NCBI GenBank assembly: GCA_964510025.1
Contig: CAZDZV010000006.1
Location: 11,143 to 75,142 of the forward strand
Source: an uncultured Methanosarcinales archaeon
GTDB lineage: Archaea > Nanobdellota > Nanobdellia > Woesearchaeales > DATDXC01
Direction of reading: 5' to 3'
Length of the DNA: 64,000 nucleotides
Made by a program: the position numbers and the translations under genes. The notes below the pieces were generated by a model, which searched no databases, was not told the DNA's origin, and saw only the letters and a list, made by a program, of their open reading frames with translations. Position 1 is the first letter of the stretch; each line of letters starts with the position of its first letter. Below, piece after piece: positions 228-43,223 of the stretch.

Positions 228-2774
228 ATGAACAAACTAGCTTTGATAAGTTTATTCTGTGTTATAGTCCTTGTGACTGGTGTTTATGGAATTGGCTATC
301 CTGTTCGTGGTAAAGTTAATGATGCCATTGATTGCGCAGATGGGGGGGCCAGAAGAGTGATACATGTTTACGTAACAGGGGATCCAGATAACTACGACAC
401 ATGTTACACCACGTCATATTTAGACAATAATAATTACGAATGTGATACTGAAAATATACCTGGGCATACTGTCGAAATTGGAAGCAGTATCACGGTTGAG
501 GTTATAGACAAAGGGGATGGTTATTATTCTGAACCTATATCTGTATTAGTTGATACGGTAACAAATGTACCTGATCTGCAACTAATTAAAGAAGGGATAA
601 TAGAACACCCAGATTATCCAACATGCCAGGGAGACACTGATGGTGATTATATAAATCAGGTTAGCGACAACTGTCCTTCTGTTTTCAACTGGGAGCAATA
701 CAATGCAGACAACGATGGCAGCGGCGATGCCTGCGATTGCGACAGCAGCGATGATACTGTTTACCATAACGCTCCTGAAATATGCGATGGCCAGGATAAC
801 CAGTGCGATGGGGATATTGGCTTTGGTGAGGTTGATGAAGGATGCGACGATGATTCAGATGATTATTGCGACCAGGCTATGACCACAGTTGGAACTCCTG
901 CTGTCTGCCCAAACGGTGGCGATGACTGTGATGATACAAATTCAGCTGTTAATCCAGGGGCATCAGAATCATGCAATGGATTAGATGACAATTGCGATGA
1001 TGTTATTGATGAAGGAGGAGATGCTCTTTGCAATCCTGGAGAGACCTGCACTGGTGAAGATGGCTGTATTGCTTCATCTTTCACATTATCATGGGAAGTT
1101 GTATTTGAGTCTACTTTGTTAACATATACAGATAGCTTCAATGCTGGTGTCGGTACAGGAGCATCAGATGGGTATGGTTCTGAAGATATCCTTCAGCCGC
1201 CTCCAAGCCCCAGTGGGATTGAGATGAAAACCATTGTGGATCTGGTGGCTCTGACAAAAGACTACAGACTAGATGATTCTGCAACGAAAATCTGGGAGAT
1301 AAAGTTGAAAGCGCAGGACCAGACAGGGGTCGGGTTTACTGGAAAGAATACGATATCCTGGTTCTTAGCTGATATACCTGATGATGTCAGACTTCTGATG
1401 ATAGACTACGGGACTGACAGTGCAAAGACCAATGTTGTAAATACTATTGACCTAAAGGTTGATCCTGACAACAAATATAGATTTGAGGTTTCAGGGGCAG
1501 ATGGGACCTATAGGTATCTGGAACTGATAGCAAGGCAGGTATCACCATCTGACAATATCGCTTACTATCCCTTTGACTCTGATTTCCTGGATGCTTCAGG
1601 AAACTTCCATGACGGAATTTCTCATGGGGACATCCAGTTTATCCCGGGGGTGATTAATGATGCAGCACTGTTCGATGGAGATGGAGATTACCTTGATATA
1701 GGCCTTTTTGTGCCCACTGACTCATTTAGCGTATCAGCCTGGGTAAAGAAAGCTGCTACCGCAAACGAGGACCAGGCCATCTTTGGCTATGGCACAGACG
1801 ATTATTTTGGTTACATGGGATTGATGAATATAGACCACAGCGGCTATAAGATGCCTTGGGGATCCATGTATACGACTGAAAGCCTGGATGACCAGTGGAC
1901 TTTCGTCACATGGGTAAGGGAGAGCACAGATAATCATTTCAGGGTTTATGTAGACGGTGAGATTTTTGCGCATATATATGGTACATGGACAGGATTGCTT
2001 CTGCCGCCTGCAAATAATACGCAATCAATAGGGGTCTCGCTAAACCATGCAAGCCCTATGGCAGACACATATTTCAGCGGCTATCTTGATGAGCTAAGAT
2101 TCTACGACAGGGTTCTGACAGAGCAGGAGATAGTAAATATGTGCAATGCAGACCAGGCAGCATCTGGCATTATCCCGGCAGACCAATGCTATAATATGAT
2201 GCCGCTTTCATCAGGATGGAATCTTGTTTCTATGCCGATCGTACCAACTGAATTCAACAAAGACAGGGAGATTTCCCTAAAGCAGGGCTGGAATCTTTTT
2301 GGGCATGTTTCCAAGGCTCCATTCTATTGGCTTGATGCAAAGATACGAAAAGCAGGGGAGACAAAAACAATAGAAGAAGCGCATTCAGATGTGTGGGTCC
2401 AGTCTACTATATACCATTTTGACCCTGGACAACAGGTCTATACCTTTGTGCCTGGAGACACTGACTACCTGGAGCCAAGCAAAGGCTACTGGCTGTATGC
2501 GTTCGAAGATGATCTGACCCTGATACTGGAAAACGCAGGTGGAGCAGCTATGGAAAACGACTTCTTGTGGACAGACGCTGAAATAAGCGATGGAACAGAG
2601 ACAAAAACACTTGAAGAGGCAAACCAGGCCGGATGGCTGCAATCGACAGTCTATTATTATGACGCAGAAGAGCAGGTTTACAAATTCGTGCCTGGAGACG
2701 ATGACTACACTTATCCATGGAAAGGCTACTGGATCTACTGCAACATAGATGACCTGACCCTGACTATCAGCTAA
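228..2774 (+). CDS. Secreted surface protein: signal peptide, two MopE-like Cys/Asp-rich putative metal-binding repeats, LamG (concanavalin A-like) domain, C-terminal tandem ~80-aa repeats
   Basis: N-terminal MNKLALISLFCVIVLVTGVYG signal. Repeats DCD(S/D)xDxxVxxxAPExCDGxDNxCDG match the MopE 'putative metal-binding motif'. 'GYLDELRFYDRVLTEQEI' is the LamG_3 C-terminal signature. ETKT(I/L)EEA..GW(V/L)QST.Y..D...QVY.FVPGD.DY repeated twice. Confidence 0.8.
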   Translation: MNKLALISLFCVIVLVTGVYGIGYPVRGKVNDAIDCADGGARRVIHVYVTGDPDNYDTCYTTSYLDNNNYECDTENIPGHTVEIGSSITVEVIDKGDGYYSEPISVLVDTVTNVPDLQLIKEGIIEHPDYPTCQGDTDGDYINQVSDNCPSVFNWEQYNADNDGSGDACDCDSSDDTVYHNAPEICDGQDNQCDGDIGFGEVDEGCDDDSDDYCDQAMTTVGTPAVCPNGGDDCDDTNSAVNPGASESCNGLDDNCDDVIDEGGDALCNPGETCTGEDGCIASSFTLSWEVVFESTLLTYTDSFNAGVGTGASDGYGSEDILQPPPSPSGIEMKTIVDLVALTKDYRLDDSATKIWEIKLKAQDQTGVGFTGKNTISWFLADIPDDVRLLMIDYGTDSAKTNVVNTIDLKVDPDNKYRFEVSGADGTYRYLELIARQVSPSDNIAYYPFDSDFLDASGNFHDGISHGDIQFIPGVINDAALFDGDGDYLDIGLFVPTDSFSVSAWVKKAATANEDQAIFGYGTDDYFGYMGLMNIDHSGYKMPWGSMYTTESLDDQWTFVTWVRESTDNHFRVYVDGEIFAHIYGTWTGLLLPPANNTQSIGVSLNHASPMADTYFSGYLDELRFYDRVLTEQEIVNMCNADQAASGIIPADQCYNMMPLSSGWNLVSMPIVPTEFNKDREISLKQGWNLFGHVSKAPFYWLDAKIRKAGETKTIEEAHSDVWVQSTIYHFDPGQQVYTFVPGDTDYLEPSKGYWLYAFEDDLTLILENAGGAAMENDFLWTDAEISDGTETKTLEEANQAGWLQSTVYYYDAEEQVYKFVPGDDDYTYPWKGYWIYCNIDDLTLTIS
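2362..2771 (+). repeat. Tandem in-frame duplication (~240-bp period, second copy truncated by the stop) encoding the C-terminal repeat of the 228..2774 protein
   Basis: acaaaaaca(a/c)t(a/t)gaagaagcg... at 2362 and acaaaaacacttgaagaggc... at 2601. Both copies end with gatga(t/c)ctgaccctga(t/c). Confidence 0.7.
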
Positions 2775-4134
2775 ACATTATTTTTTTCTTGTTTCTTTGC
2801 GTCATTATGCATAGTAATATTAGTATGAATACCAGAACTGACAGTGCTACCAAAGCAATGTCTTTTGCGGACTTTTTTTGCGATTGGAGTATTATCTCCT
2901 GCATAATCTCTTCCTCGGTGATTCCGCTGATAGCAACATTTTCTAGATTATAGCCTTCTGCTTTAAAGTACACAAATTTTTCATCTTCATCGACCTTAAT
3001 GGTATTTAGCTTTTCCCACTGGTTTGTTTTCTGAATCCTGTTGTATAGGTATACGTCGTTTTCAGTGAGTTGATTGGTTTGCAGCCATGTTTTCTCCACC
3101 TTAAAGGTAAACACCACTTTCTCAACATCATCATCATCCATATTTCTTTTGACTATCTCAAACTGGCTATATGCTATGCCAGGTGGTTCGCTTGCAGCGA
3201 AAGCCGGTAGCACGCTTTTCACAGCCATGCCTACATTCTTGACTTTCTTTTTCGTAAAGATGGAGATGCTTTCTATAGCCATGCCATCCAGTACAACATT
3301 GACCGGCTTATCAGGGGTAATCTCCTGGTATCTGATCTTTTTCTGAATGATCTCCACAGGTGCTACCGCAACTGGCTGATCGGCGGTGGGAGCAGCGCTT
3401 CCTGCCCCGCCACCGCCGCCTCCGCCGCTGCATACCCCGCAATCCTGGGGGCAAGTCGAGCATGTTTCATCCGGACTGCAAGTCCCATCACCGCAGTCAG
3501 AGACAGCATCGACAGTAAAATAGGCATAGTTTGTCCTTACATTGTTTTCTGAATCATTTGCATAGATCTGGATTAGATATTCGCCATCCGCCAGGTCTTC
3601 GATATTTATTTCGCTGAAATTGCATTCCCTGCATAAGGTGATATTTGCTCCGCCATCAAAGCTATACCAGATTGTATCATTGTAATCCCTTATGGTTGTT
3701 GCATTCACCACAACAGAATCCTCGTCATAAGCTGTAGTTGACGGCGCATCGATTGAGACGATTGCCAGCAATTGCATTACCGGAGCTACGTTATAGGCAC
3801 CATAATCAGTAGTTAAGCTCACAGAATTAGATACATAGTTACCTTCATTATCCACCATCTTTGCATGCAAAATATCACCAGCATTCCAATCATAACTAGG
3901 TATCAAATCAGGATCGCAACAGTAAACATTGTCCCATGCATTTACAATACAGGAATCATTATTCGGTTCAGTATTCTCTGTGTAGATTACTACCTCTCTC
4001 CAAGCTGGTTCAGTTCCATCATAGGCGTTGCTGATTTCCCCACAGATTAAGGGAGCCCCAATAGCATTTATGCTCAGTAAAAAAAATACGGATATGTACA
4101 GTAGCACAAATTTATTCTTGTTGCCAGTTAACAT
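2767..4134 (-). CDS. Cell-surface (S-layer-like) glycoprotein: signal peptide, Cys-rich module, poly-Gly/Ala-Pro linker, PGF-pre-PGF-like domain, C-terminal TM helix plus KKK tail
   Basis: MLTGNKNKFVLLYISVFFLLSINAIGA signal. CGDGTCSPDETCSTCPQDCGVC and SGGGGGGGAGSAAP linker. 'VEKVVFTFKVEKTWLQ...VYLYNRIQKTNQWEKLNT...FVYFKAEGYNLENVAISG' resembles the archaeal PGF-pre-PGF domain. C-terminus ALVALSVLVFILILLCIMTQRNKKK. Many NxS/T sequons. 23-nt overlap with the upstream gene. Confidence 0.75.
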   Translation of the reverse strand: MLTGNKNKFVLLYISVFFLLSINAIGAPLICGEISNAYDGTEPAWREVVIYTENTEPNNDSCIVNAWDNVYCCDPDLIPSYDWNAGDILHAKMVDNEGNYVSNSVSLTTDYGAYNVAPVMQLLAIVSIDAPSTTAYDEDSVVVNATTIRDYNDTIWYSFDGGANITLCRECNFSEINIEDLADGEYLIQIYANDSENNVRTNYAYFTVDAVSDCGDGTCSPDETCSTCPQDCGVCSGGGGGGGAGSAAPTADQPVAVAPVEIIQKKIRYQEITPDKPVNVVLDGMAIESISIFTKKKVKNVGMAVKSVLPAFAASEPPGIAYSQFEIVKRNMDDDDVEKVVFTFKVEKTWLQTNQLTENDVYLYNRIQKTNQWEKLNTIKVDEDEKFVYFKAEGYNLENVAISGITEEEIMQEIILQSQKKSAKDIALVALSVLVFILILLCIMTQRNKKKIMFS

Positions 4135-5581
4135 CGTCTGTTATGAATACACTATATGCTTCCTCCAAAGCTATTTCAAAATTTCCAATCTTAAAGGGCC
4201 CAATGTCAATAGAGCCATCCCATTCTTGTGTTGTTGCATCCCAGCGATTTACACTATTACTGGTTGGGATGCTGTCCATCAAATCATGAGCATCAGTATA
4301 AGTTGTATTACCATACAATGATACAAAATGTCTACCATTATGTTTGTTTTTATCTTCCACATAATTCATCGATATACTTTGGTTTTCAATGAGGCTGCCC
4401 GCCCAGCTCCACTCCATTGATATAGGGCTATCTGTCTTAAGATATACATATACAGCTGATGCTGTCTTATTGATATTAAAATTGCACGGTTCTGCACTGC
4501 AAAAAGCTGGAGGGGGGCAAGAGAATTCTGTACAAACCCAGTAATCTACTGTCGGATCTTCCGGTTGATAAATATAGAATCTCACACTATCAAACTCCTG
4601 AGAAAGCTCTAGCAAATCTTCAGCATCACTTATATATGATGCATTGAGATAAAGACCTAGATAATTCTTGGCAGAATCACCACTTTTCCTCGCAAACGTA
4701 AAATTCTGCTTTCCGACTATGTCAATTGTCTTGTTCAGGCCTCTGTCATTGACAGCAAAAACCCTGTAGTACACTCTTCTGTTCTGCAGCGCTGCTGCAT
4801 CCAGGAATGATTCTTCACCAACACCTATCGTAACGCAGTTGCTCCATCCAGACTGCAGGGAGGTTGTATTGCATATCATAATGTCCTTTGTGTAGTTAGT
4901 GTCGGCAACATCCCATGTCAAGGTGACACCCTCAGCTTCATCGAGGCTTATGTTGAGCCCCATAGGACCCAAAGGATACTTGCTGTAATTAACATCAACA
5001 TAGCTTGAGTTAACTGCTGTGCCGTTATCAGTGCCGTCGAAGGCCACAGCTTCGCATGTCCAGTTTGCCCCTATTGTGACATTTCCGTCCAATATGAGGC
5101 TGATGTTGTCAAACTCAGGCTTATGGGTGCCGTTTACGAACCATTTATAATAATACGAGAGATTATCATAGTTATCGTCAGAGCCGGTTGCAGTGCAGTT
5201 CAGATCGCTCGTCTCGTTTGGATTGGCGGGAAGAACCTCTACAGTCAGCACAGCTGGTGCTGTGTTGTCGACGCTCACATTCGCAAATGTGCTCAGGCTG
5301 TAATACCCTGTCAGGCTTGGGGCACCTAGATAGGTCAAGATTCCTGTTATGCTTAATATGACTGTTATCATGCTTATCGTCAGAAGAATATTTGTTTTTT
5401 CAAGCCTTCTTTGTTCAAGCTGCCTTATCTCTGACGTTATCTGCCTGACGCGGGCCTCGTAGCCCTCTATCCTCTCAGCATAATAACGCTTCAGCTCCCC
5501 ATCGACCATTGACCTATACCTGTCGGCAAGATGGATATAGCCTACAAGCTCTGCTCTTTTCTTCCTAAGTCTGTCGATCAT
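4112..5581 (-). CDS. Type II membrane glycoprotein: cytoplasmic coiled-coil N-terminus, one TM helix, ~400-aa extracellular domain with about 20 N-glycosylation sequons
   Basis: TM ILLTISMITVILSITGILTYL. Sequons NVS,NET,NCT,NLS,NGT,NIS,NVT,NWT,NGT,NSS,NYS,NIS,NYT,NTT,NKT,NFT,NAS,NKT,NQS,NTT. ATGA overlap with the upstream HTH gene. Confidence 0.75.
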   Translation of the reverse strand: MIDRLRKKRAELVGYIHLADRYRSMVDGELKRYYAERIEGYEARVRQITSEIRQLEQRRLEKTNILLTISMITVILSITGILTYLGAPSLTGYYSLSTFANVSVDNTAPAVLTVEVLPANPNETSDLNCTATGSDDNYDNLSYYYKWFVNGTHKPEFDNISLILDGNVTIGANWTCEAVAFDGTDNGTAVNSSYVDVNYSKYPLGPMGLNISLDEAEGVTLTWDVADTNYTKDIMICNTTSLQSGWSNCVTIGVGEESFLDAAALQNRRVYYRVFAVNDRGLNKTIDIVGKQNFTFARKSGDSAKNYLGLYLNASYISDAEDLLELSQEFDSVRFYIYQPEDPTVDYWVCTEFSCPPPAFCSAEPCNFNINKTASAVYVYLKTDSPISMEWSWAGSLIENQSISMNYVEDKNKHNGRHFVSLYGNTTYTDAHDLMDSIPTSNSVNRWDATTQEWDGSIDIGPFKIGNFEIALEEAYSVFITDDVNWQQE

Positions 5582-6036
5582 TTTGTTCTGTTGTATACTG
5601 TCCAGATTGTCTTTTCATTTCTGTGCAGCAACTCCCCTATATCATGATAGCTGATTTCGAAATTATCCTTGATAAAAACAACAATTGCGCCTAGCAGGCT
5701 TGATCCTGATTTCAAAGCGTCAAAAGGGATGTCATACTTTGAATAGCTGTAGCTGTAGCTTCTTGGATACTTTCTCTTAGAGTTCCTGTAAGCAAGCCAG
5801 CAAGAAGAAACCTCTTTATCCAGCAAACCCGCTATCTCCTTAAAAGACTTGTCCATATTCTCCCGCAGAAACTTAACAACTGTCTCAAGTGGGCTTAGCT
5901 TATCATTGAAGATAGAAACAGGCAATTTGTCTTCACCTTCCAGCAAGCCAAAAACCTCTTCAGCGCTAAGGTCATACTTAGCCCTAAACCTGTCAAACCT
6001 TTCCTGCAATTGCACTAAATCAGTTTCCTGAATCAT
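5578..6036 (-). CDS. Small HTH-type putative transcription regulator; first gene of the surface-glycoprotein operon
   Basis: Two helix-turn-helix-like segments (SFKEIAGLLDKEVSSCWLAYRNSKRK; ISYHDIGELLHRNEKTIWTVYNRTK). 4-nt overlap with the downstream gene. Confidence 0.5.
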   Translation of the reverse strand: MIQETDLVQLQERFDRFRAKYDLSAEEVFGLLEGEDKLPVSIFNDKLSPLETVVKFLRENMDKSFKEIAGLLDKEVSSCWLAYRNSKRKYPRSYSYSYSKYDIPFDALKSGSSLLGAIVVFIKDNFEISYHDIGELLHRNEKTIWTVYNRTK

Positions 6037-6285
6037 ATAAATAAGTATTAAAATTATATTTGTAAGTATATAAATCTTTTTATTTTATATTTGTAAGTTT
6101 CATTAAAATTTAAGTAAGTATTATCTTTTTATTTGTAAGTAATTTTATATATTTATAAGTATTTAATTTTATAAATAAGCAATAAAACAATATTTGTAAG
6201 CTTATATATTATATAAATAAGTAATTAATAAATATTTAAAAGTATAAATTTATATTAATAAGTAATAAATATTTATTTGTAAGAA
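6037..6285. repeat. Highly AT-rich control region with 5 dispersed copies of ATTTGTAAG and several (A)ATAAGTA copies; contains a putative minus-strand TATA box (~6060-6075) for the HTH operon
   Basis: ATTTGTAAG at ~6058, 6090, 6132, 6192 and 6275 (spacings 32/42/60/83). ataagta at ~6041, 6113, 6155, 6174, 6224 and 6259. Confidence 0.6.
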
Positions 6286-7362
6286 CTATTTCTTGACAGG
6301 TTTCATATCTTTTGTCTTTTCCTTGTCAGGCTTGTCATCCTTCTTCTCTTTATCGTTCTTCTCTTCTTTTTTCTCTGATTTGACTTCAGCTGAAGCTTCA
6401 GCTGGCTTGCCTTCCAGATGCTTATTGAGGTATTCCTGAAGCTTTAGTCCCTGTGCAAACAAGGGATTGTCCTTGAGCAGATCTTCAAAGGCCTTTGACA
6501 TTATCTCTGCTTTCTCTATCTTAAATTCAAACTCGCCCCTTAGCTTGCCTTCCATCTCCTTGAACCTGTCTGCAAGCTTCCTGAAATATTCCTCAACCTC
6601 GGCAAGTACCTTCTTAACCTTCTTATCGTGTTTCTCTATCTTCTCTATCTTTGTCTCAAACTCCTTCTTCTTCAGGAATGTGCCGGAAGAGACCTCCAGC
6701 TTATCCACCTTGGCAGTAAGCTCCTTAAGCTCGCCTTTGAGGCTTTCAAGCTTGTCTGCAAATGTGTTAAACGCTTCAAAGCTTTTCTGCGCTTCTATGA
6801 AAACATTGTCCACCCTGTCAGCATGCCTCTCTACCTCGGCAGTTATCTTCTTCACGGTCATTATCTCTGTCTTGACCTCCTCATTGAGCTTTATGACCTG
6901 CTCTATGCCCCTGAAAACATTTACCTGGTCCCTTATTTTCCTCAGCTGGTCCATTATGTTCTTCATCATCTCTTCTTTAGCTTCCAGAATTCCCCGTAAC
7001 CCTTCTATCTTTCCATCCTCTTTCTGGACCTGGATCATCAGCTTGTCTGGATGCACGCTCTCTACCAGGTCAGCTGCCTTTGTGGCCTTAACCTCGATCA
7101 TTCCGACTGTCCTTTGAGTATCATTAATCTGCCCCCTTATCTCCCCTATCTGTTCGTTCATGGTGGCAAACCTTTCGCCTGTAGATTTCCTCATCTCTTT
7201 CAGGCTTTCCAGGGTGCCGTTTATCTTCGTAAGGTCTGCCTGGATCATCTCTACTTTCTGAGAAACATTCGCATCTGCAGGAATCTCTTTGTTCTCCTCT
7301 TCCTCTTCGTCATCAGATTCCTCTTCTTGCTTCTTTTTTTTCTTTTTAAAAGGCCACATCAC
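6286..7362 (-). CDS. Coiled-coil protein with a poly-Lys/poly-Glu N-terminus and a Lys/Glu/Asp-rich C-terminal tail; function unknown
   Basis: MMWPFKKKKKKQEEESDDEEEEEN... with long heptad-like helical segments, then ...KSEKKEEKNDKEKKDDKPDKEKTKDMKPVKK. No TM helix. Confidence 0.6.
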   Translation of the reverse strand: MMWPFKKKKKKQEEESDDEEEEENKEIPADANVSQKVEMIQADLTKINGTLESLKEMRKSTGERFATMNEQIGEIRGQINDTQRTVGMIEVKATKAADLVESVHPDKLMIQVQKEDGKIEGLRGILEAKEEMMKNIMDQLRKIRDQVNVFRGIEQVIKLNEEVKTEIMTVKKITAEVERHADRVDNVFIEAQKSFEAFNTFADKLESLKGELKELTAKVDKLEVSSGTFLKKKEFETKIEKIEKHDKKVKKVLAEVEEYFRKLADRFKEMEGKLRGEFEFKIEKAEIMSKAFEDLLKDNPLFAQGLKLQEYLNKHLEGKPAEASAEVKSEKKEEKNDKEKKDDKPDKEKTKDMKPVKK

Positions 7363-7395
7363 ACCAAATAATTAATAGACTACTATATTAAACTT

Positions 7396-7929
7396 TTGCA
7401 TAAAAGAAAACTTTATATATGTATTAAACGAATATTGGCCAAAAGGGGTGATAAATTGAAGAAGGTTTCTCATATTGATGACTTTAGGACTCCTAACTAC
7501 AGGGTTTTCTATGCAGGACCTTATTTCAATCTTGATCTGTGGTATGAGATCACATGGAACAAGAAACATCTTAAAAAGCTGAAAAAACATGCGCAAAACC
7601 CCCATCTCTTCCATAAGCAGTTCCACGATAAGAAGTCAGACGATGCAAAGAAGAGGCATTTCAGGGAGCATGTGATTGACAGCATCCCTTTTCATGAAAA
7701 GATACTGGATGAGCATCAAAGAAGGCTTGACACTATCTTAGAGCTGATGCCTTTGCGAAAATACAAGAAGATCGTAGGCATCTCCATCAAACACGGCGGC
7801 ACGCCAGAATTTTTTGTCTATGACAAAATCAACAAGGAGGTATTTTTTGTTGTAGAGCATCTCACAGACGAAAGGAAAAAATGGATTAAGCTTGTCAGGA
7901 AATTATGTGATGTAATAATATTAAAATGA
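7396..7929 (+). CDS. Hypothetical basic protein, possible PD-(D/E)xK-like fold; the likely true start is the in-frame TTG at 7456 preceded by AGGGGTGA
   Basis: ORF with TATA-like ctttatatatg at ~7416 and SD-like aggggtga at 7444-7451. GTPEFFVYD...VVEHLTDERKK segment. Confidence 0.45.
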   Translation: MHKRKLYICIKRILAKRGDKLKKVSHIDDFRTPNYRVFYAGPYFNLDLWYEITWNKKHLKKLKKHAQNPHLFHKQFHDKKSDDAKKRHFREHVIDSIPFHEKILDEHQRRLDTILELMPLRKYKKIVGISIKHGGTPEFFVYDKINKEVFFVVEHLTDERKKWIKLVRKLCDVIILK

Positions 7930-8004
7930 TTATATTTAATACTTTTTAGCACTATGTTTATATATTTTTTAGGAAGGGGAAAAATCAATGCAAGGGGGTA
8001 GTAC

Positions 8005-9669
8005 ATGAAAAAAGGAACTGTACTGCTACTAATCTTGATAGTAAGCTCTTTTGCTAGCTTGGCAGATGAAGTCCTCATAAATTCCAAAGACTGGAAAGAT
8101 GTATACTCGGGCATGCAGTACGGATTTCTTTCCGGCAAAACGCCAAAATTCATAACAGGAGAAAAGCATGCCACCGTAATACTTAATGAGATCCGAAAGC
8201 AGGGCAACTTCATTGAGGTATACAGCTCACGGGACAAGCCTTTTATTATCGGTTATGAGTCGCTGCTTCTGTCAGAAGGCTATGATGCAGCCGAGACTAC
8301 ATCAAGATCATTGAGTATAGAACTCGCAAAAAAGCTTACGAATGTCACACGATTCATAATCATAGACGATTCCTACGGCTATAATGCAGTCGCAGCTTCT
8401 CCTTATGCGATGGTCACAGATGCGTATGTTCTTTTTGCAGACCGTAGCAACATTGGAGAGATTGTCAATTTCCTCGAAAGCCGTACTGTATCTTATCTAA
8501 TGATCTACGGGCACGTGGATAGGGAAGTCAGGGAAAGGCTTGCGAAGTTTAATCCTGAAGTGATAAACAATGACGGCGACAGGTTTGAGAATAATATTGA
8601 CATTGTAGAAAAATACAAGGAAGTTGAATCTACCAGGCAGGTTATCCTTACAAACGGTGAGTTCCTGGAAGGGGAGATACTGTCTGGAAACTTCCCGGTG
8701 CTGTTCATAGGGCAGAACAATGTGCCTGAAAAGATAAGGGAATATATCGTCAATAGTGATATAGAGGTCGGTGTCCTGATAGGGAACGATCTTGTTGGCA
8801 CAGCGAGCGTGGTAAGGAGACAGACAGGCATCAGCACATTTGTTAAATTTGCAAGGTCAGCCAGGCAACCACAGGGTGCAATCTCCCAGGTTGAGGGCCT
8901 GGACATATTCAGGGTTCCCAGATATGAGCTAAGCCTGAGCATCGATTCAGTAAGGTATAATGCAGCCGCAAGGCAGCTTGAGGTTTCGATAAAGAATGAT
9001 GTGGACCTTTCGACGTATCTGAGGGGGACATACACTCTCACCAGCGGAGACCAGGAGCAGACTGTAGGGGATGTCGATCCTGTTTTCTTGGAAGGCCAAG
9101 ATACAAAGACAGTTGTCTATGATATTGATCCGATAGCTGGTGAAGAGGACATAACAGCAAGAGTTTTCATAATCTATGGGGAATCCAAAGGTTCTCTAGA
9201 AAGGATATTGGAAGGGACCTACCCTGTAGACAGGATAGATGTGCTTGATGACACCTCTGTCACCATACAAAAAGTAGTCTACAACAAAGGGAACGACAAG
9301 TTCCATATCTATCTCACAAATGCTGGGGATATACCAGCTTACGCAGATACCGAGATCATAGACCTCCTTATAATAGATGAAAGGCAGACTTTTGGCTCAG
9401 ATGAAGTGATAAAGATAATGCCTGGAAGAACCAGGGCTTCTACAATTAAGGTTGAGCTGGCAGATGAGGACTTGGAGAACAATGAGATAGTGAGAGCCAG
9501 AGCTTATTACGGCCAGAGGGAGGATGCTCTTGTCAAGATCGTTGAAGGTGATTTTGAGCTGGTTATAAAAGCCTTTGATATAATGACATACTTGCCAGTA
9601 GCCCTCATCCTAGTGCTACTAATCTTGATATTGCTGGCCAGAAAGAAAAAGAAGAAAAAGAAATTCTAA
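8005..9669 (+). CDS. Secreted, C-terminally anchored surface protein (signal peptide; C-terminal TM helix plus KKKKKKK tail)
   Basis: MKKGTVLLLILIVSSFASLA signal. C-terminus YLPVALILVLLILILLARKKKKKKKF. SD-like GGGGGT 7 nt upstream of the ATG. Confidence 0.7.
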   Translation: MKKGTVLLLILIVSSFASLADEVLINSKDWKDVYSGMQYGFLSGKTPKFITGEKHATVILNEIRKQGNFIEVYSSRDKPFIIGYESLLLSEGYDAAETTSRSLSIELAKKLTNVTRFIIIDDSYGYNAVAASPYAMVTDAYVLFADRSNIGEIVNFLESRTVSYLMIYGHVDREVRERLAKFNPEVINNDGDRFENNIDIVEKYKEVESTRQVILTNGEFLEGEILSGNFPVLFIGQNNVPEKIREYIVNSDIEVGVLIGNDLVGTASVVRRQTGISTFVKFARSARQPQGAISQVEGLDIFRVPRYELSLSIDSVRYNAAARQLEVSIKNDVDLSTYLRGTYTLTSGDQEQTVGDVDPVFLEGQDTKTVVYDIDPIAGEEDITARVFIIYGESKGSLERILEGTYPVDRIDVLDDTSVTIQKVVYNKGNDKFHIYLTNAGDIPAYADTEIIDLLIIDERQTFGSDEVIKIMPGRTRASTIKVELADEDLENNEIVRARAYYGQREDALVKIVEGDFELVIKAFDIMTYLPVALILVLLILILLARKKKKKKKF

Positions 9670-9710
9670 AAAGGTAAACTATTTAAACATATCAGCAACT
9701 TTAGAGGTAG

Positions 9711-9986
9711 GTGAAGACTATGGCAAAGAAAAAGAAAGAAAACGCCCCCCAGAGTGTTAGCAAAGAGGAGCAGATCGGTTTTCATAAGGGCGCTTTATCC
9801 ACATTAGCTAAAGAAAGGGAAGAGATGATGAGGATATTGCAGATTGTTGAGCAGCTTATGCAGATGCACATTAAAGGGTTGAAGGATTTGGGAATAGACT
9901 TAGAGGCAGCTGCAAAAAAAAACCAGAAACAGTCTGAAAAGAAGCCAAAGGAGCCTAAGAAACCCATAGAGGATATGCTTAGATGA
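9711..9986 (+). CDS. Small Lys-rich helical protein, hypothetical
   Basis: 91-aa ORF, 4-nt overlap with the next gene; contains an A9 tract. Confidence 0.45.
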   Translation: MKTMAKKKKENAPQSVSKEEQIGFHKGALSTLAKEREEMMRILQIVEQLMQMHIKGLKDLGIDLEAAAKKNQKQSEKKPKEPKKPIEDMLR

Positions 9987-16286: not shown

Positions 16287-16934
16287 ATGAAGAGAATAGC
16301 TGTTTTGGCGATGCTCATATTACTCTCGCAAATGTCTTTTGGCGCTATTCTTCATGGCACAATATACGACACGAAGTTCAATAAGCTAAACGATGTTATA
16401 GTTGAGATAAATTCAACTCCCCCCCAGATCTTTGTTTCTAAAGAAGGGCAATATTCTTTTGTTCTTGACCCAGGACCATATAAGATCACCGCTAAATACC
16501 AGCTCAGTGATGCAAACTACCTTTATTCAGAGTCAAACGTGACAATCGCCAGGAATGGCTACTTTCTGGTAGACCTGTTCCTTAGGCCTGCCAGGAAGAT
16601 TGAAATGCCGACAGGAGCTGTTGTCGGAACCAACGTATTCCTAAATTATTCGATACTCGCATCGGTTAGCGTAACTCTGCTTATAATTTTGGGATTCTCA
16701 GTCTACAAGCTTCGTTCCAGCAATCCTCAAGCCCCTGAATTTGATGACTATACAAACAAGGTCCTTAATGCTGTCAGGGAAGAGGGAGGTAGGACCACCC
16801 AGAAGGACATAAGGAAAAAGATAGCATTGTCTGAAGGAAAGATAAGCCTCATAATATCTGATTTAGAGAACAAAGGGATATTGAAGAGGATCAAAAAAGG
16901 AAGGGGAAACATCATTATCTTAAGCAAGAGATAG
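16287..16934 (+). CDS. Membrane-tethered winged-helix protein: signal peptide, CarbopepD_reg-like beta-sandwich, TM helix, cytoplasmic wHTH
   Basis: GTIYDTKFNKLNDVIVEI (carboxypeptidase-regulatory-like). TM ILASVSVTLLIILGFSV. C-terminal RTTQKDIRKKIALSEGKISLIISDLENKGILKRIKKGRGN is a typical wHTH. Confidence 0.6.
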   Translation: MKRIAVLAMLILLSQMSFGAILHGTIYDTKFNKLNDVIVEINSTPPQIFVSKEGQYSFVLDPGPYKITAKYQLSDANYLYSESNVTIARNGYFLVDLFLRPARKIEMPTGAVVGTNVFLNYSILASVSVTLLIILGFSVYKLRSSNPQAPEFDDYTNKVLNAVREEGGRTTQKDIRKKIALSEGKISLIISDLENKGILKRIKKGRGNIIILSKR

Positions 16935-17069: not shown

Positions 17070-17882
17070 ATGGGCAGAATTCAGGAGAGATTAGAGCTAG
17101 CCTTGTCAGAATTCGCAGCTCAGGAAAAAAAGGAAAAAGAGAGTATACTATTTCTACCTTTGAGTGAAATAAAGCTTAATCCCAACAGGATAAGAAGAAA
17201 GATCAACAGAGAGGAGATTGCAGATATGGCTAACAACCTGAAGAAGTTTGGCATACTTCAGCCTCTTGAAATCAACGGAAAAAAAGAAGTGGTCCTGGGC
17301 AACAGGAGATTTGAGGCTGCAAAACTAGCTTCTTTGGAGAAGGTTCCTTGTGTAATACGCAACAGCTCAGACATCTTGGAGATGGAAAAACAGCTTGTTT
17401 CCGACCTTCACACAAAGCATCTAAGTGTGCTTGAGAGGGCAATAGCTTTTAGCACCCTTATGGAACTGAAGTCAATGACCAAATACGCGCTTGCAAAATA
17501 TCTAAATCTAAGCCACAACCTTGTATGCAGGACCTTGGCGCTGCTGAAAGCAAATGAGAATACCATGAGATTGATCAGGCTAGGCAGAATCAGCCAGAGA
17601 AAGGTAGCTATGGTTTTGTATAGGCTGAAAGACAAAAAAATGGAAGATTTCGTGATTCAGGAGATAATAGGCAGAAAGATGAATATAGTTCAGGCAGGAA
17701 ATTTCATAGCAGAGATAAATGATCCTGAGATATTCAAGAAGCATTTCTTGACAAGAATAAAGGCTTTCAAAACAACAGTGATGCACTTTAGGGAAAAGCT
17801 CGAAAAACTCAATCTTACCGAAGAGCAAAGAAAAGAGATTCTGGAAGAGCTAAGGTCCATTGATTTCAGTGAAATATTATGA
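17070..17882 (+). CDS. ParB/Srx-like nuclease-domain protein with HTH
   Basis: LPLSEIKLNPNRIRR...GILQPLEI....VVLGNRRFEAAKLASLEKVPCVIR matches the ParB N-terminal consensus, followed by an HTH-like region. Confidence 0.7.
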   Translation: MGRIQERLELALSEFAAQEKKEKESILFLPLSEIKLNPNRIRRKINREEIADMANNLKKFGILQPLEINGKKEVVLGNRRFEAAKLASLEKVPCVIRNSSDILEMEKQLVSDLHTKHLSVLERAIAFSTLMELKSMTKYALAKYLNLSHNLVCRTLALLKANENTMRLIRLGRISQRKVAMVLYRLKDKKMEDFVIQEIIGRKMNIVQAGNFIAEINDPEIFKKHFLTRIKAFKTTVMHFREKLEKLNLTEEQRKEILEELRSIDFSEIL

Positions 17883-18718
17883 AGGTTGATTTCGATTTCC
17901 ATACCCATACTGACGTATCTGATGGTAGCTTAAGCCCTTCTGCCCTGGTCAGAAAAGCCAAGCGTGAAGGATTGAGGCTTATTGCGATAACAGACCACGA
18001 CAATATTGACGGTATACCTGAAGCAGTTGAGACTGGCAGGAAGATAGGTATTGATGTCATTCCGGGTGTGGAGATTAGCATTGACTTCAAGGCTACGATG
18101 CATATGTGCGGCTACTTCATCGACATAACTGATACCCAGCTCAGAAAAGCCCTGAAGTTTGTGCAGGATGCTCGCAGAGACAGAAATCCTCAGATTATCG
18201 ATAAGCTGAACAAGCTGGGCATGGATGTGAGGATTGAAGATGTTAAGAAACATGCAGGCAGGGATCAGATTGGAAGGCCCCATTTCGCAAAAGCGCTTAT
18301 CGAGAAAGGCTATGTTACGACAAAAGAAGAGGCCTTTGAAAAATATCTGGCAAAAGGCAGGCCGGCGTATGTAGACAAGAAGCGGCTTGACAGGGAGAAA
18401 GCAGTGAAGACCATCCTGGATGCAGGAGGCACTGCTGTCCTTGCGCATCCCAAGCAGCTTCGCCTGGACACTGCCAAAGAATACAGGAAGCTTTTTATGG
18501 AGATGAAGGAATTGGGCGTCTCTGGCATCGAAGCATACTCAAGCTGCCATACAGAAGATGAAAATAAGATGTTCAGGGAGATCGCTGATGAGCTGGGGAT
18601 GCTTGTCACCGGAGGCAGCGACTTCCATGGTGACACAAAACAAGATGTTGAACTAGGGGAATTCGGAGAGAACATTGATATTGACGTGGATAAGTTGGTT
18701 GAAAAGATGAAAGCATGA
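17879..18718 (+). CDS. PHP-family metal-dependent phosphoesterase (COG0613/TrpH-like)
   Basis: DFHTHTDVSDGS, AITDHD, GVEIS, LAHP motifs. ATGA overlap with the parB-like gene. Confidence 0.75.
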   Translation: MKVDFDFHTHTDVSDGSLSPSALVRKAKREGLRLIAITDHDNIDGIPEAVETGRKIGIDVIPGVEISIDFKATMHMCGYFIDITDTQLRKALKFVQDARRDRNPQIIDKLNKLGMDVRIEDVKKHAGRDQIGRPHFAKALIEKGYVTTKEEAFEKYLAKGRPAYVDKKRLDREKAVKTILDAGGTAVLAHPKQLRLDTAKEYRKLFMEMKELGVSGIEAYSSCHTEDENKMFREIADELGMLVTGGSDFHGDTKQDVELGEFGENIDIDVDKLVEKMKA

Positions 18719-20118
18719 GAGAAAAGCACATTTTCTGGCTTCTGCTTGTTTTTATTGTATATATGCATTTTGAAGACCTGGTGAAGCTCTATTTCAATTA
18801 TCATCCGATAGCGCATGGGTTCAAGTATGTTTTTGCCCTGGTATTCTTCCTTATATGGATTTTTCAGATTGGGGTAGTTAATACAAGATTTACGATACCT
18901 CTGGCTGTTTATCTGTTCTTTGTATTTGTCCAGTTCATAAATCCCCTCATGTTTGGAAAACAGGGCTTTATGTTGTCGGTTATTGGGTCGCTTTACTATA
19001 TAGCATTTGTGCCCTTGTTTTTTGTTGCCCATCGGGTATTTGATATAGAAAGGCTGAAAAAGACACTATGGATTGTCTTAGGCTTGGCTTGCTTTTCAGC
19101 TCTGGCAGCGCATATACAGTTCTTCCTTGGCTGGCAGAGATACCTCCAGCTGATGCCTTACAGCCATGAGATGTTCCTGAGGACCAAAAACTTTGTTTTC
19201 CATGGGCCTTTGGCTTTCAGCGTAAAGCCCCCAAGATACTGGTATGTTGCAGGCATAATGATCAGCAGCATTTTTGTTCTTTCTGAAAAGAAAAAGCTCA
19301 TAGCTGGCTTTCTGGGCCTTAACTGCTTGCTTGCTTTGGCCCTTTCAGGAATGAGGTTTGCCATGGCAGCTTCTTTTTTTTCCCTGATGATAGTCTTTTT
19401 CTTTGGACTAAGAAAGCAGAAAATATCTAATGCGATGAGGATAGCTGCAGTTTTGATACTGCTATTGACTATGTTTTTCCCTTTCTCGATGCTTCCCAAG
19501 CAAAGGTACATTCAGTTCATCACAAATCCTGTTGGTACATATATCCAGCAAAGAGGGAGGATGTGGCCACAGTTTTTCAGGGATATCGTCAAATATCCGT
19601 TAGGCACAGGATTGAGGGCCGGAGGGCATATTGACACCGAAAGGTTTAAGGTACCTGATGTATCGATGCGTGCCGGAGAAAACTACATAGCAGTCATCGC
19701 TTCCCAGATTGGCATATTTGGGCTGATTGCAGTGCTTTGGCTATATGTTGCGATAGCCCGAAAATTCTATGAAAACTTGTCCCTGAGGAGATTCAGATAT
19801 TTTGTCAGTCTGGGCATATTTGCCCTGCTATTTTCCTTTATGTTTGAGGTGGGTTTTTTCCCGGGAGAAGGCCCGAGCTACTGGATGTTCTGGCTGTTTT
19901 CAGGTGTCTTGTTCAAAATAGATAAGATGGAGGTACAAAAGATGCGAAAAACATATTCTTTGGCTAGCGAAAGTTTTTTTCTCAGGGGAATTCCTGATGT
20001 AAGGGTATGGCTCTTACAAAGCAAATTTGTCAAGCTGGGCCATAGGATATTCTGTTGTTTCAGGAATTCAAGGTTTTTTAGGTTTATTGAGAATATAGTC
20101 AAGTATGCGGAAATTTAA
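18715..20118 (+). CDS. Polytopic membrane protein, O-antigen ligase/Wzy-like (first gene of the glycan locus)
   Basis: About 10-12 predicted TM helices. ENYIAVIASQIGIFGLIAVLWLY resembles the Wzy_C core. Confidence 0.55.
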   Translation: MREKHIFWLLLVFIVYMHFEDLVKLYFNYHPIAHGFKYVFALVFFLIWIFQIGVVNTRFTIPLAVYLFFVFVQFINPLMFGKQGFMLSVIGSLYYIAFVPLFFVAHRVFDIERLKKTLWIVLGLACFSALAAHIQFFLGWQRYLQLMPYSHEMFLRTKNFVFHGPLAFSVKPPRYWYVAGIMISSIFVLSEKKKLIAGFLGLNCLLALALSGMRFAMAASFFSLMIVFFFGLRKQKISNAMRIAAVLILLLTMFFPFSMLPKQRYIQFITNPVGTYIQQRGRMWPQFFRDIVKYPLGTGLRAGGHIDTERFKVPDVSMRAGENYIAVIASQIGIFGLIAVLWLYVAIARKFYENLSLRRFRYFVSLGIFALLFSFMFEVGFFPGEGPSYWMFWLFSGVLFKIDKMEVQKMRKTYSLASESFFLRGIPDVRVWLLQSKFVKLGHRIFCCFRNSRFFRFIENIVKYAEI

Positions 20119-20893: not shown

Positions 20894-20937
20894 AAATCAG
20901 CCGATTATTGAAAAGTCTCTGCTAAAATAATCATAAG

Positions 20938-28598: not shown

Positions 28599-28612
28599 TC
28601 TGCAAGAAGAAA

Positions 28613-30303: not shown

Positions 30304-30309
30304 CATAAT

Positions 30310-43222: not shown

Positions 43223-43223
43223 G

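What the first reader, a model, noticed from the sequence alone, without database searches (positions are those of the whole stretch)
2767..6036. Three-gene operon: HTH regulator, hyper-N-glycosylated membrane protein, PGF-pre-PGF-like surface protein
The genes are tightly coupled (4-nt and 23-nt overlaps). The middle protein has about 20 NxS/T sequons in ~400 extracellular residues. The last has a signal peptide, a Cys-rich module, a poly-Gly linker, a domain resembling the archaeal PGF-pre-PGF domain, and a C-terminal TM plus KKK tail but no PGF tripeptide. These are the likely major glycoprotein substrates of the sulfated-glycan machinery encoded ~13 kb away. They may represent an S-layer-like or sheath system with its own dedicated regulator.
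Basis: partly seen in the sequence, partly recalled or inferred. Interest (0 to 1): 0.55.

Follow-up and report, generated by a model that had tools for sequence, protein, structure and literature searches.

The report
Tandem-HTH regulator coupled to surface glycoproteins
This three-gene operon is one copy of a widespread, undescribed cassette in Woesearchaeota (DPANN archaea), in which a small protein with two sigma-region-4-like DNA-binding modules sits behind a phased array of DNA repeats and is translationally coupled to variable, sequon-rich surface proteins, a likely route by which these tiny symbionts control their surface.

Summary
Three minus-strand genes overlap by 4 and 23 nt: A (152 aa), B (489 aa) and C (455 aa). 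B has 20 NxS/T sequons against 5.7±2.1 expected. C carries a true PGF-pre-PGF domain (TIGR04213, 64 bits) and no PGF-CTERM.

- **A's fold.** A has two tandem sigma-70-region-4/LuxR-type HTH modules (AF2 pLDDT 91). Its family has about 2,000 representative clusters.
- **Repeat array.** The 250 nt upstream of A hold 12 direct CTTAYWWATA repeats phased at 20-21 bp. The same TACTTACA arrays lie upstream of A-like genes in many other genomes, about 38-fold enriched and sense strand only.
- **Downstream partner.** In 80 of 90 cases the next gene overlaps the A-like gene. It usually encodes an N-terminally anchored, often giant protein (up to more than 3,300 aa). Median sequon density is 4.1 per 100 aa against 0.44 in other ORFs.
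- **B's membership.** B's N-terminus matches the conserved partner module.
- **Fusions.** In 16 of the top 148 family representatives, the A-type unit is fused to the C-terminus of such a giant protein, after a hydrophobic anchor and a poly-Lys stretch.

Best reading: A is an autoregulatory, membrane-coupled DNA-binding factor for a variable surface-glycoprotein cassette. The S-layer reading and the link to the nearby sulfated-glycan cluster are not supported by conservation.

The parts
6037..6285 (-). AT-rich (14% GC) promoter/operator region. It holds 12 direct copies of CTTAYWWATA phased at 20-21 bp (one 31-bp gap), running from -247 to -9 of the A start codon. The CTT(A/T) cores start at 6283, 6262, 6242, 6221, 6200, 6179, 6159, 6139, 6118, 6097, 6066 and 6045.
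   Evidence: Five of the six exact CTTACAAATA copies in the 64-kb window lie here, all on the minus strand (0.29 expected in the whole window). TRF reports a 41-bp period.
5578..6036 (-). Gene A, 152 aa. It has an N-terminal helical hairpin (residues 4-32) and two tandem sigma-70-region-4/LuxR-type HTH modules: residues ~39-92 (nt 5761-5922) and ~103-152 (nt 5581-5730).
   Evidence: internal duplication; invariant W80, T143, W145, T146, R150. AF2 pLDDT 91, pTM 0.74; local Foldseek matches to SigE, SigD, SigR and SigW region 4, and to GerE and TraR.
5297..5581 (-). B residues 1-95, the conserved 'partner' N-terminal module. It comprises a basic cytoplasmic helical hairpin, a TM helix (nt 5312-5395) and the post-TM motif APSLTGYY.
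   Evidence: an HMM built from 28 other partners, window excluded, hits B residues 2-95 at 22.9 bits, E 4e-6. Also (pLDDT 80-88 for residues 1-60).
4982..5296 (-). B residues ~96-200, an Ig-like repeat domain. The same domain occurs in tandem copies in other surface proteins.
   Evidence: 28-32% identity to the repeats of P0002 and P0003; pLDDT 63-85.
4112..4981 (-). B residues 201-489 plus the stop codon, the fast-evolving C-terminal ectodomain. It is homologous only to the C-terminus of the 980-aa second gene of the syntenic locus L044.
   Evidence: 23% identity over 359 aa, E 1e-10. AF2 pLDDT <50, no usable model.
2767..4134 (-). Gene C, 455 aa. In order it has a signal sequence, an N-terminal ~180-aa domain shared with D, a 7-Cys module, a G7 linker, a PGF-pre-PGF domain (nt 2947-3351), a TM helix (nt 2788-2874) and the tail QRNKKKIMFS.
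   Evidence: TIGR04213, 64.2 bits. C vs D 24% identity, E 1e-8; C vs the L044 third gene 35.5% identity, E 2e-34. Also.
228..2774 (+). Neighbour D, 848 aa, convergent with C. It is a secreted LamG_3 and MopE-motif protein with the same N-terminal domain as C, and it is sequon-depleted. It is a paralogous surface protein, not part of the operon.

Best explanation
The locus is one cassette of a large Woesearchaeota-specific family. Shown and inferred steps are kept apart below.

**Inferred mechanism**
- A is a cytoplasmic, sequence-specific DNA-binding protein made of two sigma-4/LuxR-type HTH modules.
- A binds the phased TACTTACA-type direct repeats that fill its own promoter region. The repeats sit about 21 bp apart (two helical turns), so they lie on one face of the DNA and should allow cooperative coating.
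- Through this binding, A autoregulates the A-B-C transcript.
- The array spans the whole region. Its last two copies lie 30 and 9 nt before the ATG, where an archaeal core promoter and start site should be. Regulation is therefore likely concentration-dependent: upstream sites help and proximal sites shut off.
- A's activity is tied to the cytoplasmic face of its membrane partner, not freely diffusing. The grounds are the translational coupling and the existence of fused forms.
- B and C are surface proteins: B is N-terminally anchored and probably heavily N-glycosylated; C is C-terminally anchored through a PGF-pre-PGF stalk, a TM helix and a Lys tail. They act as variable adhesin- or receptor-like proteins, not as a lattice.

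**Shown here**
- A's fold.
- The array and its family-wide conservation.
- The gene coupling.
- The sequon enrichment.
- B's membership of the partner family.
- The fusions.
For: **A's fold.** The two HTH modules are evident as an internal duplication. They appear in a pLDDT-91 model. Each module superposes on ECF sigma region 4 (rmsd 0.6-0.8 Å over 43 residues) and on GerE/TraR (3.0 Å over 51 residues).

**The array.**
- The window has 12 phased copies.
- Upstream of A homologues, TACTTAC occurs at 5.26/kb on the sense strand, 0.17/kb antisense and 0.137/kb in background. Spacing peaks at 20-22, 41-43 and 62-64 bp.
- Of 35 clusters of >=3 motifs in ~1.1 Mb of related loci, 30 lie directly upstream of an A-like gene.
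- Copies recur at about -9 to -20 and -30 to -42 from the ATG.
- The recognition helix of module 2 is almost invariant, matching the invariant CTTA core.

**Coupling.**
- 80 of 90 A-like genes overlap the next gene, 38 of them by exactly 4 nt. 82 of 90 partners have an early TM helix.
- The sources' own gene calls agree.
- Partners have a median of 4.07 sequons per 100 aa, against 0.44 in 420 other ORFs (p 7e-29) and 0.71 in other ORFs with an N-terminal TM.

**Membrane link.**
- A conserved cytoplasmic N-module is present in 28 of the 36 partners whose TM starts at residue 30 or later. B matches it.
- 16 of the top 148 family representatives are long proteins of 652-5,919 aa; the 9 with an intact N-terminus carry the N-module. 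All 16 have a sequon-rich region followed by C-terminal A unit(s) (two in 15 of them). A short hydrophobic anchor and a poly-Lys stretch precede the A units in every junction sequence inspected.
- One such fusion is encoded on contigs from two different samples.

**Synteny.** Locus L044 repeats A(152 aa), a 4-nt overlap, a sequon-rich protein, a 23-nt overlap, then a C-like protein.
Against: - No binding, transcript or protein data exist. The A-array link rests on co-occurrence.
- Window A's Pfam HTH scores are below the gathering thresholds, and its pI is 6.2.
- I found no covariation between the variable module-1 helix and motif variants.
- About a quarter to a third of A-like genes have a clear array: 25 of 80 upstream regions carry >=3 TACTTA[CT] copies, and 30 ACTTA[CT]A clusters lie upstream of A-like genes.
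- The one fused gene examined lacks a sense array. It shows three antisense copies instead.
- About half of the partners have only a short signal-like N-terminus, so any control through the cytoplasmic module cannot be universal.
- The strict strand bias would also fit an RNA-level element.
Confidence: 0.55

Rival explanations
1. Sigma/anti-sigma-like or contact-signalling system. The partner's cytoplasmic N-module (or, in fused forms, the covalent tether) sequesters the sigma-4-like protein at the membrane. A signal sensed by the glycosylated ectodomain, such as host contact, releases or activates it. It then acts at BRE/TATA-proximal TACTTACA sites as a promoter-specificity factor.
For: - The topology is the same as in ECF sigma/anti-sigma pairs: a sigma-4 fold followed by a translationally coupled, N-in single-pass protein with a conserved helical cytoplasmic domain.
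- The C-terminal fusions place the HTH units next to the membrane, in the same polypeptide as the N-module.
- Castelle et al. 2021 noted sigma-70-annotated genes in Woesearchaeota with no anti-sigma partner (PMC8204110).
- JGI names family member P0018 a 'sigma24 family protein'.
Against: - There is no sigma-2 domain, and archaeal RNAP does not use sigma.
- The N-module has no zinc-binding anti-sigma signature and matches no anti-sigma model.
- About half of the partners lack the long cytoplasmic module.
- No interaction prediction could be run.
Confidence: 0.25
2. An ordinary dedicated regulator is paired with two structural envelope (S-layer or sheath) glycoproteins. These proteins are the main substrates of the sulfated-glycan cluster 11-13 kb away.
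For: - The operon, the sequon enrichment, the PGF-pre-PGF domain and the membrane anchors are all real.
- A cluster rich in sulfotransferases and glycosyltransferases is present at about 17-46 kb.
Against: - B is almost an orphan, and its counterparts vary about 30-fold in length, counting the fused proteins.
- The cassette is multi-copy: 4 loci in one MAG and tandem copies in 9 loci.
- No glycan genes lie near the cassette in six annotated relatives.
- The cluster is of the Wzy/Bac_transf type, and no AglB motif occurs in the window.
- A better-conserved envelope candidate, F, lies next door.
Confidence: 0.12
3. The repeats are not a transcriptional operator. They could instead be one of three things:
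- iteron- or centromere-like sites, with A as a Rep- or ParB-like DNA-organising protein;
- sites that tether the locus to the membrane, to couple transcription, translation and secretion of giant proteins;
- a repeated element in the 5' UTR RNA.
For: - Direct repeats of about 21-22 bp in a 14% GC region next to a gene for a two-domain HTH protein resemble iteron replicons (the comparison rests on general knowledge).
- Membrane-tethered HTH fusions would bring DNA to the membrane.
- The strict sense-strand bias fits an RNA element.
Against: - The loci are chromosomal, multi-copy and always tied to surface-protein genes.
- There are no relatives on viral contigs, no Rfam match and no PHROG hit.
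- The sigma-4 fold binds duplex DNA in all structural matches.
- The antisense copies upstream of the fused gene argue against an RNA element.
Confidence: 0.08

Closest known systems
ECF sigma factor region 4 with a co-transcribed single-pass anti-sigma factor (e.g. SigE/RseA, SigD/RsdA, SigR/RsrA)
   Same: - Each HTH module of A superposes on sigma region 4.
- The downstream gene is translationally coupled and encodes an N-in, single-pass membrane protein with a helical cytoplasmic N-domain and an external domain.
- Annotation pipelines call family members 'sigma-24'.
   Different: - A has no sigma-2 domain; it has two sigma-4 modules in tandem instead.
- The host is an archaeon with TBP/TFB-dependent RNAP.
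- The partner has no anti-sigma domain signature, and its ectodomain is a giant, sequon-rich surface protein.
- Fused forms exist.
LuxR/GerE/FixJ-type HTH effector domains
   Same: They share A's tetra-helical HTH fold. GerE and TraR appear among the structural matches.
   Different: - PF00196 does not match.
- A has two modules in one chain, whereas these proteins form a homodimer.
- A's candidate sites are direct repeats at a 21-bp period, whereas these proteins bind palindromes.
Membrane-bound one-component transcription factors: ToxR/CadC/TcpP in bacteria, and ArnR/ArnR1 of Sulfolobus acidocaldarius (PMC6396743)
   Same: An HTH DNA-binding domain is held at the membrane and controls genes for surface structures. 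The fused A-family proteins have exactly this logic.
   Different: - The HTH family is different.
- In the fused forms the HTH units sit at the extreme C-terminus, after a giant ectodomain flanked by two membrane segments.
- In the window, the HTH protein and the membrane protein are separate polypeptides.
Archaeal autoregulators that bind regularly spaced sites in their own promoters (e.g. Ss-LrpB, with three spaced boxes; recalled from my own knowledge, not checked here)
   Same: Multiple phased sites lie in the regulator's own control region, implying cooperative, concentration-dependent autoregulation.
   Different: - The fold is different (Lrp/AsnC versus tandem sigma-4).
- Here there are up to 12-13 copies, and the motif is shared across many paralogous cassettes.
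PGF-pre-PGF / PGF-CTERM / archaeosortase A substrates (e.g. haloarchaeal and Methanosarcina surface glycoproteins)
   Same: C has a bona fide PGF-pre-PGF domain placed just before its C-terminal membrane segment.
   Different: C has no PGF tripeptide and no PGF-CTERM match. It ends in a plain TM helix plus Lys tail, so ArtA processing is not expected.
Giant surface proteins of DPANN archaea (e.g. SPEARE of Nanohaloarchaeota; giant proteins are mentioned in PMC10266531)
   Same: They are very large, secreted or anchored, multi-domain proteins, presumed to mediate host interaction in small symbiotic archaea.
   Different: No dedicated tandem-HTH partner, operator array or HTH fusion has been described for them, as far as my literature searches show.

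Membership tests
PGF-pre-PGF domain proteins (TIGR04213) | Match to the TIGR04213 model above its curated cutoff | tested here: met
   C residues 262-396 score 64.2 bits against a cutoff of 28, E 1.3e-17.
PGF-CTERM / archaeosortase A substrates | A C-terminal PGF tripeptide, then a TM helix and a basic tail (TIGR04126) | tested here: not met
   There is no PGF in the last 45 residues of C, and no PGF-CTERM model hit at E<=0.1. The TM helix and Lys tail are present.
PGF-CTERM / archaeosortase A substrates | An archaeosortase gene in the genome | not testable with these tools
   Only 64 kb of the genome is available, and the window's own record could not be retrieved.
Sigma-70 / ECF sigma factors | Region 2 (core binding and -10 recognition, PF04542) | tested here: not met
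   No region-2 hit in Pfam or NCBIfam. The model shows a helical hairpin plus two region-4-like modules.
Sigma-70 / ECF sigma factors | Region 4 HTH (PF08281) above threshold | tested here: inconclusive
   The window protein scores 17.8 bits against a cutoff of 25.7. Several homologues carry precomputed PF08281 and PF13384 hits. The structural superposition on SigE region 4 is 0.6 Å over 43 residues.
Anti-sigma factors (ZAS / RskA-type) | A cytoplasmic anti-sigma domain with an HxxxCxxC zinc motif, or a match to an anti-sigma model | tested here: not met
   B matches no anti-sigma model. The partner N-module has at most one conserved Cys.
Anti-sigma factors (ZAS / RskA-type) | An N-in single-pass topology, encoded immediately downstream of its HTH partner and coupled to it | tested here: met
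Archaeal N-glycoproteins | N-x-S/T sequons in an extracytoplasmic region | tested here: met
   B has 20 sequons after its TM helix, against 5.7±2.1 expected. The enrichment is conserved in the partner family.
Archaeal N-glycoproteins | AglB oligosaccharyltransferase present, and glycans demonstrated on the protein | not testable with these tools
   No WWDxG motif occurs in the 64-kb window. The rest of the genome and the protein chemistry are unavailable.
S-layer proteins | A single abundant, lineage-conserved lattice-forming protein | tested here: inconclusive
   Conservation argues against it: B has 3 database hits including itself, and the partners are multi-copy and of very variable length. 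Abundance and lattice formation cannot be tested.
A-family/partner cassette (defined in this work) | All four of the following:
- a tandem sigma-4 HTH protein;
- an overlapping downstream gene;
- a partner with the N-module or TM anchor and a sequon-rich ectodomain;
- an upstream TACTTACA-type phased array. | tested here: met
   HTH protein; overlap; partner; array.

The most novel reading that the evidence does not exclude
Woesearchaeota may use a sigma-4-derived, membrane-controlled promoter-specificity system. In this reading, giant glycosylated surface proteins act as contact receptors. Their cytoplasmic N-module, or a covalent C-terminal tether, holds a tandem sigma-4 HTH factor. The factor recognises TACTTACA elements next to the TATA box. 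This would be an archaeal functional analogue of sigma/anti-sigma or Notch-type signalling. It would couple host contact, or the secretion status of the giant protein, to expression of alternative surface-protein cassettes.
Probability: 0.25. Interest if true: 0.85.

Novelty: new variant of a known kind. Interest (0 to 1): 0.68.

Why it matters
DPANN archaea are ultrasmall, mostly uncultured symbionts, and it is unknown how they present and regulate the surface proteins that presumably mediate host contact. A 2021 comparative study noted puzzling 'sigma-70' genes in Woesearchaeota with no anti-sigma partner and no known mechanism (PMC8204110).

This locus and its relatives give that puzzle a concrete, testable shape:
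- The 'sigma' is a tandem region-4 HTH protein.
- It has a defined candidate DNA site: phased TACTTACA arrays in its own promoter.
- It has an obligate genomic partner: a membrane-anchored, sequon-rich and often giant surface protein.
- Natural fusions tether it to the membrane.

If confirmed, this would be the first regulatory circuit described for DPANN surface proteins. It would also be a new way in which a bacterial-type sigma-4 module has been used in archaeal transcription.

Tried and rejected
- **B structure.** The AF2 model of B, from a 3-sequence alignment, had mean pLDDT 47.9. Only the N-terminal hairpin and one Ig-like domain are usable, so no fold search was run.
- **Locus scan.** The search for related loci with the 17-sequence alignment failed because no stretch was conserved enough. 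A 10-sequence alignment worked.
- **Covariation.** Comparing A's recognition helices with motif base 5 showed no clear pattern.
- **Mobile-element and defence checks.** These gave no relatives on viral contigs, no PHROG hits and only a weak AbiEi HTH hit in PADLOC. The window has no Rfam families and no tRNAs. A mobile-element or defence reading is rejected.
- **Promoter scan.** The sigma-70-type promoter scan is uninformative for an archaeon, with 8 sites found against 10.8 expected.
- **Source organism.** The cluster look-up gave no names, and A's exact sequence is not on record in the contig index. The assignment to Woesearchaeota is inferred from relatives.
- **Castelle et al. supplement.** The held text does not list fam00359, so the identity of that family with the A family is unverified.
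- **PGF-pre-PGF as an operon component.** It is not universal. The domain appears in only a handful of related loci: a third gene in L080, inside the partner in L037, and in upstream ORFs in L049, L073 and L088.
- **C homologues.** There are few, and they are partial.


Full report
**1. The observation**

The A/B junction is ATGA, a 4-nt overlap, and the B/C overlap is 23 nt.

B has 20 N-x-S/T sequons, all after its single TM helix (residues ~63-90). Shuffles give 5.7 ± 2.1, and 0 of 2000 reach 20. Its 62-residue N-terminus is basic (pI 9.9) and its ectodomain is acidic (pI 4.15). This fits an N-in, C-out topology.

The enrichment is protein-specific. The secreted neighbours D (228..2774, +) and F (8005..9669, +) have one sequon each, against 6.0 and 3.0 expected. 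C has 6 against 4.1.

C has a signal sequence, a 7-Cys module, a G7 linker and a PGF-pre-PGF domain above the curated cutoff (TIGR04213, 64.2 bits vs 28). It ends in a C-terminal TM helix and the tail QRNKKKIMFS. There is no PGF tripeptide and no PGF-CTERM hit.

**2. What A is**

Pfam and NCBIfam give only sub-threshold hits: Sigma70_r4_2, HTH_23, and region 4 of SigX4/SigJ. A database search found 16 homologues. Two are labelled Woesearchaeota, and one is named by JGI a 'sigma24 family protein'.

The alignment shows an internal duplication into two ~50-residue modules...IP.SIF...LS.LE..VK.L.EN..LS...I..LL.R..(K/R)T(I/V)W... Invariant residues include W80, T143, W145, T146 and R150.

The AF2 model is confident (pLDDT 91, pTM 0.74). 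It shows a helical hairpin followed by two three-helix HTH units. Foldseek against the PDB finds no global match (best E 0.09). Single modules do superpose on ECF sigma region 4 (SigE, SigD, SigF at 0.6-0.8 Å over ~43 residues; SigR and SigW less tightly) and on GerE/TraR (3.0 Å over 51 residues). No PDB sequence relative exists.

A is therefore a sigma-4/sigma-4 tandem HTH protein, not a sigma factor, because it has no region 2. A profile search of 1.84 billion representatives finds 2,235 members at E<=1e-3 and 2,040 at E<=1e-10.

**3. A phased repeat array in A's promoter**

The 250-nt intergenic region upstream of A (6037..6285, 14% GC) holds 12 direct copies of CTTAYWWATA, spaced 20-21 bp apart with one 31-bp gap. 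They run from -247 to -9 of the start codon. Five of the six exact CTTACAAATA copies in the whole 64-kb window are here, all on the operon strand, against 0.29 expected. TRF reports a 41-bp period, which suggests two alternating variants.

The element is conserved across genomes.
- In the 300 nt upstream of A-like genes from other loci, TACTTAC occurs at 5.26/kb on the sense strand. It occurs at 0.17/kb antisense and at 0.137/kb in the loci overall.
- Consecutive-copy spacing peaks at 20-22, 41-43 and 62-64 bp.
- Of 35 clusters of >=3 motifs anywhere in ~1.1 Mb of loci, 30 lie directly upstream of an A-like gene.
- The consensus is T-A-C-T-T-A-C-A-T-A, followed by an AT-rich stretch with a weak G at +13.
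- L051 has 13 copies at a strict 20/21-bp spacing.
- Copies recur at about -9 to -20 and -30 to -42 from the ATG.

The array therefore overlaps the position where an archaeal BRE/TATA box and start site should lie. This positional reading is my inference.

The recognition helix of module 2 is nearly invariant across loci, matching the invariant CTTA core. Module 1 varies, and I saw no clean covariation with motif variants.

**4. The downstream partner is conserved as a type, not as a sequence**

B itself is nearly an orphan, with 3 hits including itself. Only its Ig-like domain (residues ~96-200) matches other proteins.

The source gene calls at loci carrying six A homologues show what follows the A-like gene. 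In four full-length cases the next gene overlaps it by 1-14 nt and encodes a protein of 880 to 4,738 aa. In two more the overlapping gene is cut by the contig end (≥98 and ≥901 aa). One case is an exception.

A scan of GTDB species representatives confirmed 131 relatives and returned 80 loci. All are labelled Woesearchaeota, Nanoarchaeota, unclassified archaeon or 'Methanosarcinales'; I suspect that the last label is wrong. Some genomes have several copies, with four loci in JAGLMD01.

Across these loci I counted 90 A-like genes with >=600 nt of downstream sequence. This count includes the window and three duplicate loci.
- 80 overlap the next gene, 38 of them by exactly 4 nt.
- 82 partners have a TM helix in the first 160 residues.
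- 55 partners are >=500 aa or run off the contig.

Partners carry a median of 4.07 sequons per 100 aa. Other ORFs of >=200 aa carry 0.44 (n=420, p 7e-29), and other ORFs with an N-terminal TM carry 0.71. Observed/expected is 2.54 against 0.94.

**5. B belongs to the partner family through its N-terminus**

Partners with a long N-terminus share a module made of three parts:
- cytoplasmic helices with the motifs I..C.(N/K)..(K)..L and (W)..YY..L...Y;
- a TM helix;
- the motif P-x-[ILF]-T-G-[FYLH].

28 of 36 such partners fall into one BLAST cluster. An HMM built without the window hits B residues 2-95 at 22.9 bits, E 4e-6. AF2 models this part of B as a confident helical hairpin running into the TM helix. 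The x-T-G-x motif follows the first TM helix in 43 of 81 partners, against 20 of 511 control ORFs. Its role is unexplained.

**6. Fusions**

Among the top 148 representatives of the A family:
- 82 are A-sized;
- 50 contain two A units;
- 16 are 652-5,919 aa long.

Architecture of the 16 long proteins:

| Feature | How many of the 16 |
|---|---|
| Partner-type N-module | 9 (the other 7 lack it and appear N-terminally truncated) |
| Sequon-rich region before the A units | 16 (0.9-7.4 sequons per 100 aa) |
| A unit(s) at the extreme C-terminus | 16 (two units in 15, one in P0162) |
| Short hydrophobic segment (W-T-I-R-I-... type) and a poly-Lys stretch before the A units | every junction sequence inspected |

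One fusion, P0037, is encoded identically on contigs from two different samples. Its upstream region lacks a sense array and has three antisense motif copies.

These fusions place the HTH units in the cytoplasm, tethered to the membrane by the surface protein. They argue that the separate A proteins also work with their partners.

**7. The third gene and synteny**

Locus L044 (Woesearchaeota RIFCSPHIGHO2_01_FULL_47_16) repeats the window's layout:

| Element | Relation to the window |
|---|---|
| E-like coiled-coil gene upstream | 65% identity |
| A (152 aa) | followed by a 4-nt overlap |
| 980-aa protein with 63 sequons | C-terminus homologous to B (E 1e-10); followed by a 23-nt overlap |
| 488-aa protein | N-terminal domain 35.5% identical to C |
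| 140-aa secreted protein | no counterpart in the window |

A PGF-pre-PGF domain also occurs in the third gene of L080, inside the partner of L037, and in ORFs upstream of A in L049, L073 and L088. It is a recurrent membrane-proximal module, but not a universal one. C's N-terminal domain is shared with the convergent neighbour D.

**8. Interpretation**

*Most likely (about 0.55).* A binds the phased array and autoregulates A-B-C, and its activity is linked to the membrane partner. B and C are variable surface proteins, and B is probably heavily N-glycosylated.

*Main rival and most novel reading (about 0.25).* This is a sigma/anti-sigma-like or contact-signalling system.

- The glycan cluster is real.
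- It is of the Wzy/Bac_transf type.
- No AglB motif occurs in the window.
- No such cluster accompanies the cassette in six annotated relatives.

*Iteron, partition-site or RNA-element readings are unlikely*.

**9. Comparison with the literature**

Castelle et al. 2021 reported sigma-70-annotated genes prevalent in Woesearchaeota. They found no anti-sigma factor and no known mechanism (PMC8204110). This is probably the same family, but I could not verify it.

Membrane-bound HTH regulators of surface structures are known in archaea, for example ArnR/ArnR1 (PMC6396743). My searches found no description of the tandem sigma-4 architecture, the TACTTACA arrays, the partner module or the fusions.

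**10. Verdict**

The locus is a member of a large, apparently undescribed Woesearchaeal cassette. I class it as a new variant of a known kind (a membrane-coupled HTH regulator of surface proteins), with interest 0.68.

Noticed in passing
window 8005..9669 (+): F is a 554-aa protein with a signal peptide, a C-terminal TM helix and a K8 tail. It has no Pfam hit and only 1 sequon. Homologues at 45-52% identity lie within a few kb of A-like genes in L035, L041, L074, L075 and L080. F is far better conserved than B or C, and is a better candidate for a structural envelope protein.
   Followed up: partly
window 6286..7362 (-): E is a 358-aa, Lys/Glu-rich coiled-coil protein directly upstream of the repeat array on the same strand. 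It is 65% identical to a gene about 2.8 kb upstream of the A-like gene in L044. Its function is unknown.
   Followed up: no
window 228..2774 (+): D is an 848-aa secreted protein with LamG_3 and MopE-type Cys motifs. It shares its N-terminal domain with C and has two C-terminal 'GWNL...KGYW' modules. It is sequon-depleted (1 vs 6.0 expected). It is convergent with C, and their 3' ends overlap by 8 nt.
   Followed up: partly
window ~17070..46229 (+): A long glycan-biosynthesis cluster. It holds ParB_N/HTH_ParB and PHP-domain genes, Wzy_C, two sulfotransferases (23547..24194 and 29434..30303), at least 9 GT2 and 6 GT1/GT4 genes, an ABC exporter and Bac_transf. The PHP protein could be a PAP phosphatase serving the sulfotransferases; this is inference only.
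   Followed up: partly
window ~52000..56400: A low-GC (29%) island. It contains an AAA_15/AbiEii-like ATPase at 53806..55563. It may be a defence or mobile island.
   Followed up: no
B residues 87-95 (window 5297..5323); also partner proteins in L004, L005, L008 and many others, and the fused proteins P0037, P0043, P0055 and P0060: A conserved [ILVFMY]-T-G-x motif lies right after the first TM helix of partner proteins (43 of 81 partners vs 20 of 511 controls). Similar '...F.R(I/L)(F)SS(I/L)TGRAV' segments recur inside the giant ectodomains. It may be a processing site.
   Followed up: partly
L012 5754..5924 and 5966..9907: A TACTTACA array with 6 copies sits directly in front of a partner-type gene that hits the N-module HMM, with no A gene in between. 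The array can therefore drive a partner gene on its own.
   Followed up: no
L090/L089 2940..3000: Upstream of the fused gene P0037, the motif occurs only in antisense orientation (GTAAGTA, TAAGTAT, TAAGTAA), within 50 nt of the ATG.
   Followed up: no
window 59724..61688 (-): A 654-aa membrane protein with a PTPS_related domain (PF10131, E 1e-37). Its role was not examined. No classical AglB WWDxG motif occurs anywhere in the window.
   Followed up: no
window 16287..16934 (+): A winged-helix protein (DUF7343 and HTH_24) encoded just upstream of the glycan cluster. It could be that cluster's own regulator.
   Followed up: no
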